Assembly: GCA_964016885.1 (NCBI GenBank)
Contig: OZ024746.1
Location: 65,472,001-65,536,000 of the forward strand
Source of the DNA: Eledone cirrhosa
Lineage: Eukaryota
Reading direction: 5' to 3'
Length of the DNA: 64,000 bases
Position numbers and translations under genes: made by a program. Below are positions 881 to 3,105 of this stretch, piece after piece (position 1 is the first letter of the stretch; the number at the start of each line of letters is the position of its first letter). Under the pieces are notes generated by a model. That model was not told the DNA's origin and did no database searches. It worked only from the letters and a program-made list of their open reading frames with translations.

Positions 881-984
881 TTATATATATATATATATAT
901 ATATATATATATATATATATATATATATATATATATATATATGTGTGTGTGTATATATATGTATATGTAGATAGACCAGGCTTT

Positions 985-1045
985 TTTCATTCTGAGGATT
1001 GAAGGCAAAATTGTTTTGCTTTTAAGAAACCACTGGTGAATGGAA
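985..1045 (+). ncRNA. Type I hammerhead ribozyme, copy 1 (cleavage triplet GUG, probably inactive)
   Basis: Stem I TTTCATT(985-991)/AATGGAA(1039-1045); core CTGAGGA 992-998; 12-bp stem II TTGAAGGCAAAA/TTTTGCTTTTAA; GAAA 1026-1029; stem III ACC/GGT with ACT loop. Confidence 0.75.
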
Positions 1046-2236
1046 TAATTGCCTTATGTTGCTTATTACATTACTACTATATATATGTATATGTAAGGTT
1101 CATATGAATTATCTAAGATTGAGTTTTACACACACATATATATATGTATGTATATATATGTATATATGTATGTGTGTGTGTGTGTTTGTATTTGGTTGTG
1201 CGTGTTTATGATATGTACGTATTTGTATTTGTATAGCTATGTATGTATGTGTGTGTGTGTATGTATACATATATATGTGTGTGTGTATGTGTGTGTGTGT
1301 GTGGGTTTATATATATATGTGTATGTGTATATGTGTGTGTATAAATGTATACGTGTGTGTATGCGTGTTTGTGTATGTATTTGTGTATGTGTATGTATGT
1401 GTTTATGTATTTGTATATGTATATTTATGTGTGAGAGTGTGTGCATGTATTTACTTTTTCGTACGTATGTCTACGTGCATTTGTGTGTATTGCTTACCAC
1501 GCGTGTCTGTTCATCTACCCGTCGTTTGTATTGCTGTCAACTGAATAATAATCTTTATTATTATTTTATTTTTTTATTTTATATATATTTTTTCTCATAT
1601 TTATTTGCGTGTGTGAATATGTAGAGGAGTGTATATTTTTCTAATTTTGTACATGTATATGTACGCATTTATGTACGTGTGTATATAGGTATGATTGTGT
1701 GCATGTATGTATGTATATGTATGTGTGTATGGCTATGTATGTGTATGTGTATGCATGTATATATATATATATATATATATATATATATGTGTGTATATAT
1801 ATATATATATATATACATATATATATATATATACACATATATATATATATATATATATATATATATATATATATATATATATATATATATATATATATAT
1901 ACGTGTGTATATATATGTGTGTGTGGTTGTATATATGTATGTGTATGTATGGATGTGTTGATATTTATGTGCGTATGTATGTGTATATGTATGTGTATGT
2001 GTGTATTTATATACACATATATATGTGTATATGTGTGTGTGTATGTATGAGTGTATGTATATATATATGTGTGTGTGTGTATGTATGCTTTTGTGTGTGT
2101 TTGTCTGTGTTTGCGTGTGTGTTTGCATGTGTGGTTTTTTTTAATTTTTCCTTTCATTTTTCTTTCTCCAGCCTCACTTTCATATAGATTGCATTTTTGT
2201 TTTTAAAATCCAAATTCAATAAACCGACCAGGATTT

Positions 2237-2296
2237 TTTAATTCTGAGGATTGAAAGCAACATTTTTCGCTTTTAAGAAACCACTGGTAAATGGAA
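2237..2296 (+). ncRNA. Type I hammerhead ribozyme, copy 2 (cleavage triplet GUA)
   Basis: CTGAGGA 2244-2250; stem II TTGAAAGC/GCTTTTAA; GAAA 2277-2280; stem III ACC/GGT; GTA 2287-2289; stem I has one mismatch. Lies in a ~105-bp direct repeat (974-1079 vs 2226-2328). Confidence 0.75.
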
Positions 2297-3105
2297 TAAT
2301 TGCCTTATGTTGTTTATTACATAACTATATATATGTATATATATATGCTTAAATGCGATCTCACATGCCCCAACGTACCCACTCATACATATATGTATAT
2401 ATATATTTATTTATTAGTGATATACATTTATCCTTATCGAGACCTCTTTGGATTTTAGTCTTCACATTTATTATTATTAATATATATATATATATATATT
2501 ATTAATATATATATATATATATATATATATATATATATATATATATATATATATATATATATATATATATATATATATATAAATATATATACATATATAT
2601 GAGTGTGTATGTATGTATATATATATATAATATACATAAATACACACACACACACACATATATATATATATATGTGCGTGGGATGGGTTGAGGTGATATG
2701 TCTGTGGGAAGTTTGGAGCAAGAGAGATCGCAAAATATATAATAAAAAATAATACATTAACAGAGGAGATTTTGGGTAGGATCTCTACTTGAACGTATAA
2801 AAGAACAATTTTATATATGTAATATTTCATTATTGTAGCTTTCTAAGCATCAATTAGGAAAAAAGATTGAATGTGTGGTAAGGTATAGTTAATACATATC
2901 TATTGAAAGAATAACTTCCGGCCAACTTCAGATCTAGGCATTATAATAAAATGCGGTGAGCAAAATATCGACAATTCTGTATCTTTGTGGGCGTTATGTA
3001 GTTTAACGAGAAGACGTAGCAGAAACAGTGTATGGGGAATTTCCACTTGAACGTTCGGCAATTAATACACTTCCAATCGTATCTTTGGCTGTTTCAGTAA
3101 TATGT

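What the first reader, a model, noticed from the sequence alone, without database searches (positions are those of the whole stretch)
974..2328. Two type I hammerhead ribozymes in direct repeats 1.25 kb apart, enclosing mostly microsatellite: a retrozyme-like unit
Seen: a ~105-bp direct repeat in which both copies fold as type I HHRs (stem I, CUGAGGA, stem II, GAAA, 3-bp stem III). Stem II differs between copies but its base stays paired (G-U to A-U, different loop). Copy 2 has a cleavable GUA; copy 1 has GUG. The interior is non-coding (TA)/(TG)-rich sequence. Established: tandem HHRs bracketing non-coding DNA define retrozymes and PLE pseudo-LTR derivatives, which release monomeric or circular RNAs. 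Inference: a non-autonomous HHR retroelement with a ~1250-nt monomer (cleavage sites 1038 and 2289), an unusually long A/U-rich stem II with U-A at its base, and microsatellite cargo. It could help spread microsatellites through this genome.
Basis: partly seen in the sequence, partly recalled or inferred. Interest (0 to 1): 0.8.

Follow-up and report, generated by a model that had tools for sequence, protein, structure and literature searches.

The report
Penelope retrotransposon carrying a duplicated hammerhead
The two ribozyme-like repeats are the tail end of a protein-coding jumping gene (a Penelope-like retrotransposon) that likely once inserted a copy of its own terminal ribozyme into itself; the inner copy then lost its normal cut site and is decaying while the terminal copy stays conserved, so this is not a free non-coding RNA circle.

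Summary
The repeats and both type I hammerhead folds are real, but this is not a non-autonomous retrozyme. They lie in the 3' UTR of a Hydra-clade Penelope-like element (PLE): its RT/GIY-YIG ORF stops at window 7-9, and intact 710-aa copies exist elsewhere in the genome. Full copies read HHR-B, 5' UTR, ORF, 3' UTR, HHR-A, microsatellite interior, HHR-B (about 4.4 kb). Older subfamilies carry the same interior without A. An intermediate one has A nearly identical to B (GUA). Later copies have GUG (662 vs 18 non-G). A then changed faster than B (11 vs 3 of 91 columns, p=0.048). The junction that an integrated 1.25-kb circle would leave occurs 0 times (control 476). B-type ribozymes covary across related families. 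Likely mechanism: B defines the RNA ends, and A is a self-inserted, largely silenced relic. Extra: two GCUC…GAGC-ACUCU hairpins in the 5' UTR lie beside the two insertion ends and are visible by eye in published Hydra consensi. Cleavage and RNA were not tested. The scan earlier found a single Hydra-PLE hammerhead in another genome.

The parts
1..9 (+). Last two codons and stop (TGA 7-9) of the PLE RT/GIY-YIG ORF; the decayed, 5'-truncated ORF runs upstream to about window -1982 (L031:8018-10000)
   Evidence: tblastn of intact P0001: aa 21-710, 83% identity, with stop/frameshifts/deletions
10..202 (+). First part of the element's 3' UTR, ending in (TA)n
   Evidence: UTR1 upstream of A in 47 of 55 copies with room
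203..881 (+). Nested 3' end of a different PLE family inserted in the UTR's (TA)n; carries a minimal hammerhead at 764 (GAAA changed to GAAT); not part of the element
   Evidence: 78-88% identical to the minus-strand PLE at about 20.4-22.6 kb; absent from other copies
974..1079 (+). HHR-A: internal copy of the element's terminal ~103 bp. Stem I 985-991/1039-1045, CUGAGGA 992-998, stem II 999-1025, GAAA 1026-1029, palindrome 1029-1037, G17 at 1038 (GUG)
1080..2225 (+). Microsatellite-rich 3' UTR interior with unique segments (1086-1130, 1186-1240, 1441-1660, 2126-2225) shared by family copies and by older A-less subfamilies
   Evidence: A-B spacing 729-1839 nt in 34 copies
2226..2327 (+). HHR-B: terminal hammerhead (CUGAGGA 2244-2250, stem II 2251-2276, GAAA 2277-2280, GUA 2287-2289, predicted cut after 2289); this copy has two private damaging changes; the element ends at 2327
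2328..2346 (.). (TA)n-type target sequence joined to the element's 3' end
   Evidence: 37 of 40 tail-less B ends run into TA repeats

Best explanation
The feature is the 3' UTR of an autonomous Hydra-clade Penelope-like retrotransposon in which the downstream hammerhead (B) likely cuts the element's RNA to unit length, while the upstream one (A) is a likely self-inserted duplicate whose cut site changed to GUG and which is now decaying. Shown: in full copies the sequence after B's cut site is the 5' UTR (226 nt to the ATG of a 710-aa RT/GIY-YIG ORF), so the unit is B-to-B, about 4.4 kb; insertions end either 38 nt past the cut site or about 65-80 nt further, joined to (TA)n. Inferred: B cleaves as a dimer through its 9-nt palindrome; the template is a ligated circle or a tandem transcript, since every insertion contains sequence from both sides of the cut; the RT primes at (TA)n next to a conserved 5' UTR hairpin. 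Inferred history: the element targets (TA)n and its own UTR is full of (TA)n, so a 5'-truncated copy of its last ~103 bp landed inside the master; that master persisted briefly with two GUA ribozymes, then fixed A17>G in the inner one, and all later subfamilies descend from it.
For: ORF directly upstream. Intact ORFs of 711-715 codons with B-5'UTR-ORF-A-B order in L092, L093, L101 and others; P0001 has RWK, DKT, CxCX5C, CxxC, CxH, the Hydra marks of PMC8557442 section 11. A: G17 in 61 of 61; B: GUA in 88 of 89. Older copies L136, L145, L150 share the interior but have no A. A-context copies: 662 with G17 vs 18 without; 15 of those 18 keep the ancestral spacer and their A is nearly identical to B, ending at the element's normal 3' end. 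Tree of 49 ORF ends: no-A outside (100/100), then A-GUA, then A-GUG to the tips. A 11 vs B 3 changes in 91 columns, Fisher p=0.048; B's changes are N7 and loop 2 only. 13 copies of the youngest clade also change core A6 in A. Across 19 lineage variants the core is invariant and 11 of 19 pairs show two-sided changes; cognate stem II duplex -8.4 vs -2.8 kcal/mol cross-family. G17 slows cleavage 8- to >300-fold (PMC3884650 passages).
Against: No cleavage or RNA data. Rfam does not recognise the motif and the monomer HHR fold is not the minimum-energy fold. The G17 change is one of about four early changes in A, so selection for silencing is not shown; the 662:18 ratio also reflects time span and the bias of exact patterns against old copies. 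The A-GUG clade has only 88/79 support and the p-value is marginal. G17 ribozymes can keep some activity. A's catalytic strand stays mostly intact, and loop UCU also occurs in a GUA family (L141). A and B share two later changes (N7 T>G; first base G>A), suggesting some conversion between them. Copies were sampled by similarity searches, not at random.
Confidence: 0.82

Rival explanations
1. A is kept as a catalytic helper: its intact core pairs through the palindrome with B and cuts B's GUA, while its own GUG is not cut, giving an asymmetric intramolecular dimer that makes a single cut per unit.
For: B needs a partner (hairpin +0.4, dimer -8.2, A/B heteroduplex of the young form -7.0 kcal/mol). 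A keeps GAAACC in 61 of 61 and CUGANGA in 48 of 61; fixed core changes are at N7 and N17 only.
Against: A-less subfamilies transposed abundantly. The youngest clade amplified with CUGUAGA in A (13 copies). A changes faster than B and about twice as fast as the ORF end (12% vs 6.7%). About one core hit is expected by chance among 11 changes, so an intact core is not significant.
Confidence: 0.1
2. One reading: a non-autonomous retrozyme whose 1.25-kb A-to-B monomer is excised, circularised and re-integrated.
For: Two type I HHRs in direct orientation with a recurring non-coding interior; animal retrozymes are proposed to derive from PLE pLTRs (10.64898/2026.07.22.740005); 15 early copies had two GUA sites.
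Against: 0 junctions of pre-B + HHR + post-A vs 476 for pre-A + HHR + post-A. 47 of 55 A copies have ORF-side UTR upstream; the other 8 start at different points. A is G17. Published units are 51-972 bp tandem repeats with an HHR in each.
Confidence: 0.03
3. The hammerheads are passengers that do not cleave in vivo; the terminal 100 bp is conserved for another reason, such as RT binding or a promoter.
For: PLE minimal HHRs cleave poorly in vitro (PMC4209133); PMC8557442 section 15 calls HHR function unclear and possibly parasitic; all insertions retain sequence 3' of the cut site.
Against: Invariant catalytic core with free N7, compensated stems I and II, and non-G at 17 in 18 of 19 variants match ribozyme constraints, not a DNA motif.
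Confidence: 0.05

Closest known systems
Hydra-clade Penelope-like elements (Craig et al. 2021, PMC8557442), nearest described family Hydra-1_Obim
   Same: Single RT + C-terminal GIY-YIG ORF with RWK, DKT, CxCX5C; (TA)n targeting; type I HHR near the 3' end with palindromic stem III (Hydra-1_oBim acca-a-tggt in File S2); partial tandems, inverted arms and a tail on one arm.
   Different: Unit 4.4 kb with a ~2.1-kb microsatellite 3' UTR (listed Hydra consensi 1.1-3.0 kb); two direct HHRs, the inner one G17, whereas File S2 lists one sense-strand HHR per Hydra family; stem II about 10-11 bp. A different family from Hydra-1_Obim (compared by eye only).
Metazoan non-LTR retrozymes (PMC7229834; 10.64898/2026.07.22.740005)
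   Same: Type I HHRs in direct repeats, low GC, PLE ancestry.
   Different: Here part of a coding element, no head-to-tail arrays of the unit, one HHR has G17, spacing 0.7-1.8 kb.
Minimal/dimeric PLE hammerheads (PMC4209133)
   Same: Long helix II, extra nucleotide at the base of helix II, short palindromic helix III, predicted dimer; circular-template model for pLTR formation.
   Different: No internal, cut-site-mutated duplicate was described in the parts read (parts 1-2 of 4).

Membership tests
Hydra-clade PLE | Single ORF, RT followed by C-terminal GIY-YIG endonuclease | tested here: met
   P0001, 710 aa: YRDD 346, VY..YVG 575-596; 1328 homologs, one with PF01541 (GIY-YIG, name recalled). 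Pfam and PDB searches gave no significant hit.
Hydra-clade PLE | RWK motif, DKT in place of DKG | tested here: met
   RWK 37, DKT 114, no DKG; 118 of 120 top homologs have each
Hydra-clade PLE | CxCX5C linker; no CCHH; CxxC and CxH near the C-terminus | tested here: met
   CSCRKPDEC 555, CSLC 658, CPH 689; no Cys inside the GIY-YIG hairpin
Hydra-clade PLE | Insertion into (TA)n | tested here: met
   37 of 40 tail-less B ends run into TA repeats; loose ends
Hydra-clade PLE | Type I HHR near the 3' end; pLTR, inverted arm and tail architecture | tested here: met
   (tail on 48 of 88 B ends; 14 continue into the 5' UTR)
Hydra-clade PLE | Placement in the Hydra clade on an RT tree with reference sequences | not tested
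   Reference sequences were only seen in a supplement and compared by eye
Type I hammerhead ribozyme | Core CUGANGA / GAAA with three helices supported by covariation | tested here: met
   relatedness inflates the shuffle control, slid controls much lower (87.8% vs 33-50% paired)
Type I hammerhead ribozyme | Non-G at N17, copy B | tested here: met
   GUA in 88 of 89
Type I hammerhead ribozyme | Non-G at N17, copy A | tested here: not met
   G17 in 61 of 61 sampled; 662 vs 18 genome-wide
Type I hammerhead ribozyme | Self-cleavage | not testable with these tools
   needs in vitro transcription or RNA end mapping
Non-LTR retrozyme | Non-coding, non-autonomous | tested here: not met
Non-LTR retrozyme | Head-to-tail repeats of the HHR-to-HHR unit, intact HHR in each | tested here: not met
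   0 junctions vs 476 control; A is G17
Non-LTR retrozyme | Abundant circular RNA of unit length | not testable with these tools
   no RNA holder listed
Plant LTR retrozyme | Type III HHR in LTRs | tested here: not met
   topology is type I; PBS, PPT and 4-bp TSD not examined

The most novel reading that the evidence does not exclude
This lineage exposes the RNA signals of PLE retrotransposition: the hammerhead sets the ends of a circular 4.4-kb template, and a clade-wide pair of GCUC…GAGC-ACUCU hairpins just 3' of the priming sites is the docking or template-boundary signal of this telomerase-related RT. The self-inserted copy A, which has the ribozyme but lacks the hairpin, is never used as an end and had its cut site silenced by selection: a natural experiment showing that PLE hammerheads cleave in vivo.
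Probability: 0.35. Interest if true: 0.7.

Novelty: new variant of a known kind. Interest (0 to 1): 0.4.

Why it matters
Whether hammerheads in endonuclease-bearing PLEs do anything is stated as open (PMC8557442 section 15). Here one lineage holds a constrained terminal ribozyme and a relaxed internal duplicate of dated origin, plus near-identical young copies with intact ORFs (330 nt of ORF end 100% identical in 8 loci), so cleavage, circularisation and priming can be tested directly. The element also carries about 1-2 kb of (TA)/(TG) repeats that are its own target type, a plausible positive feedback for microsatellite spread. As a 'new retrozyme' the finding falls away.

Tried and rejected
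Rfam: no hammerhead hit; miRNA hits are microsatellite noise. Pfam/PDB sequence searches of the ORF: nothing significant. Neptune clade was my first guess; dropped for Hydra on motifs. No RNA holder listed; the four runs laid are contigs of unrecorded kind from one study and say nothing on expression or RNA ends. Metagenome scan for the 5' UTR hairpin: 59 matches, 0 of 59 with an HHR upstream or the ORF, so chance. A shortened element ending at A and continuing into the 5' UTR: 1 pattern match, which is an older B copy. mis-parsed two of 19 rows (L182, L119); redone; L131 lacks its own stem I (inversion junction) and was left out of the duplex means. Lunse et al. (PMC5785218) was not held. Literature searches returned no report of an internal G17 duplicate or of the hairpins; the library lacks most subscription papers and Repbase/Dfam were not searchable; bioRxiv supplements were not seen.

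Full report
Observation. The two repeats are at 974-1076 and 2226-2327, differ at 9 of 103 columns and each contains stem I, CUGAGGA, a long stem II, GAAA and ACC-ACU-GGU; N17 is G at 1038 and A at 2289. The interior is 63% (RY)n runs. Rfam found no hammerhead, and the monomer HHR fold is 4-6 kcal/mol above the minimum-energy fold. The repeat is a large family: 1089 first-look candidates and 10,417 matches of an HHR pattern against 22 for the reversed control (includes overlaps, related families and one unrelated satellite).

What it is. Sequence upstream of the window (L031) encodes RT and a GIY-YIG domain in frame-broken form, ending at the TGA at window 7-9; it matches residues 21-710 of an intact copy at 83%. 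A protein search of the genome listed copies with open frames over 700 codons; I fetched 14 chosen for long frames. Several read HHR-B, 'tail', ATG, ORF, 3' UTR, HHR-A, interior, HHR-B. The tail is therefore the 5' UTR: 226 nt from B's cut site to the ATG, unit length 4440 nt in L101 and 4631 in the older L136. The protein P0001 has RWK, DKT, CxCX5C, CxxC and CxH, the marks given for the Hydra clade (PMC8557442 section 11). Window 203-881 is a different PLE's 3' end nested in the UTR's (TA)n.

A and B are different things. Among 153 distinct HHR copies in loci L001-L105, 61 were A, 89 B, 3 unclassified. A has G17 in 61 of 61; B has GUA in 88 of 89. 60 of 61 A copies read on into the interior (the other is cut by the locus end); 47 of 55 with room have the ORF-side UTR upstream, and the 8 others begin at different points. 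Of 88 B ends, 37 join TA runs about 38 nt past the cut site, 48 carry the tail (33 end with it, 14 continue into the 5' UTR, 1 unclassified), 3 other; contigs of four runs from one study show the same two ends. The window's own B has private changes in stems I and II.

Retrozyme test. An integrated A-to-B circle would join pre-B sequence, an HHR and post-A sequence. That pattern has 0 matches; the control pre-A + HHR + post-A has 476. The reciprocal short element gave 1 match, an older B.

History. Of 20 regions fetched around older HHR variants, three had both ORF end and full UTR (L136, L145, L150): all carry the microsatellite interior but no A; L181 likewise shows no A. Genome-wide, HHRs followed by the post-A segment number 662 with G17 and 18 without; 15 of the 18 keep the ancestral spacer, and their A is nearly identical to the B of the same copies and stops at the element's normal 3' end before a TA run. 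A tree of 49 ORF ends (7 of 56 left out because A's state could not be called) orders no-A, A-GUA, A-GUG; the A-bearing clade has 100/100, the GUG clade 88/79. Between early and youngest copies A changed at 11 of 91 columns and B at 3 (p=0.048), the ORF end at 22 of 330. The youngest tip has CUGUAGA in A, 13 copies. G17 reduces cleavage at least 300-fold in minimal and 8- to 100-fold in stabilised HHRs (PMC3884650 passages), so A is predicted to be impaired, not necessarily dead.

Constraint on B. Nineteen variants from four related families keep CUGA-GA and GAAACC-NNN-GGU, vary at N7 and loop 3, and only window A has G17. 87.8% of cells pair and 11 of 19 pairs change on both sides; slid controls pair 33-50% (relatedness inflates the shuffle control). 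Cognate stem II arms pair at -8.4 vs -2.8 kcal/mol across families. Stem III is a palindrome favouring dimers, as described for PLE HHRs (PMC4209133 parts 1-2; PMC6765202 passages).

Mechanism. Shown: layout, two insertion ends, order of subfamilies, differing conservation. Inferred: B cleaves as a dimer and defines a B-to-B RNA; the template is circular or tandem because insertions contain both sides of the cut (the model proposed in PMC4209133); priming occurs at (TA)n next to the 5' UTR hairpin; A arose by self-insertion and was silenced. Whether silencing was selected is open.

5' UTR hairpins. A 7-bp GCUCUGU/AUAGAGC hairpin followed by ACUCU sits between the two insertion ends in all four families, and a second GCUC…GAGC-ACUCU hairpin lies before the ATG. 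By eye both are present at the 5' end of Hydra-1_Ajap, and the first after the HHR in Hydra-2_Ajap, Hydra-2_Amil and in altered form Hydra-1_Crog (File S7). The main text of PMC8557442 has no 'hairpin' or 'stem-loop'. Within this genome the stem is nearly invariant, so it gives little covariation; a metagenome scan added nothing.

Papers seen: PMC8557442 abstract, passages, sections 11 and 15, supplement parts 1, 2, 52, 53 of 59; its preprint, passages; PMC4209133 parts 1-2 of 4; PMC7229834 part 2 of 6; 10.64898/2026.07.22.740005 part 1 of 5 and passages; PMC6765202 and PMC3884650 passages; others as search listings only. File S2 lists one sense-strand HHR per Hydra family. An earlier scan note on another genome (e1-7769371) reports a single Hydra-PLE hammerhead; it was seen after my reading was set.

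Verdict. Real feature, known class, new variant: a long-UTR Hydra PLE with a duplicated, cut-site-mutated hammerhead. Interest 0.4.

Noticed in passing
L101:3129-3155 and about 3195-3280 (element 5' UTR; absent from the window copy): Two hairpins closed by GCUC/GAGC and followed by ACUCU; the first lies between the element's two insertion ends. Seen by eye in published Hydra consensi from sea cucumber, coral and copepod; candidate RT-binding signal.
   Followed up: partly
window 203-881 (+) and about 20400-22650 (-): A second PLE family with a minimal hammerhead (764, damaged; 20636 minus strand, intact GAAAC) and RT remnants at 21707-22468; no protein similarity to P0001. Also at window 4330-4420 and upstream in L031.
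   Followed up: partly
window 39146-42571 (+), 42735-43700 (+), 44363-45120: 1141-codon open frame of a non-LTR retrotransposon with RT and a C-terminal restriction-like endonuclease signature (identification recalled), followed by 3' fragments of related elements, separated by (AAT)n.
   Followed up: no
L175-L178, L180, L141 (second hit), L128: More distant HHR families with the same core and palindromic stem III; L175-L177 and L141 share the 5' UTR hairpin. Their ORFs were not characterised.
   Followed up: partly
L136:6100-6300 and 7350-7460, L145, L150: Older subfamilies carry an extra ~700-bp UTR segment with a palindromic ACGGCTTGAGC motif and an inverted GAGCACTC motif, lost when or before A was gained.
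   Followed up: no
A and B acquired the same two later changes (N7 T>G, first base G>A), suggesting conversion or template switching between them.
   Followed up: no
window 5749-6672 (-), 13086-13922 (-), 22926-24081 (-), 47708-48148 (-): Fragments of other retrotransposon ORFs.
   Followed up: no
L114: 40-bp tandem satellite that matches the HHR pattern by chance in some units.
   Followed up: no
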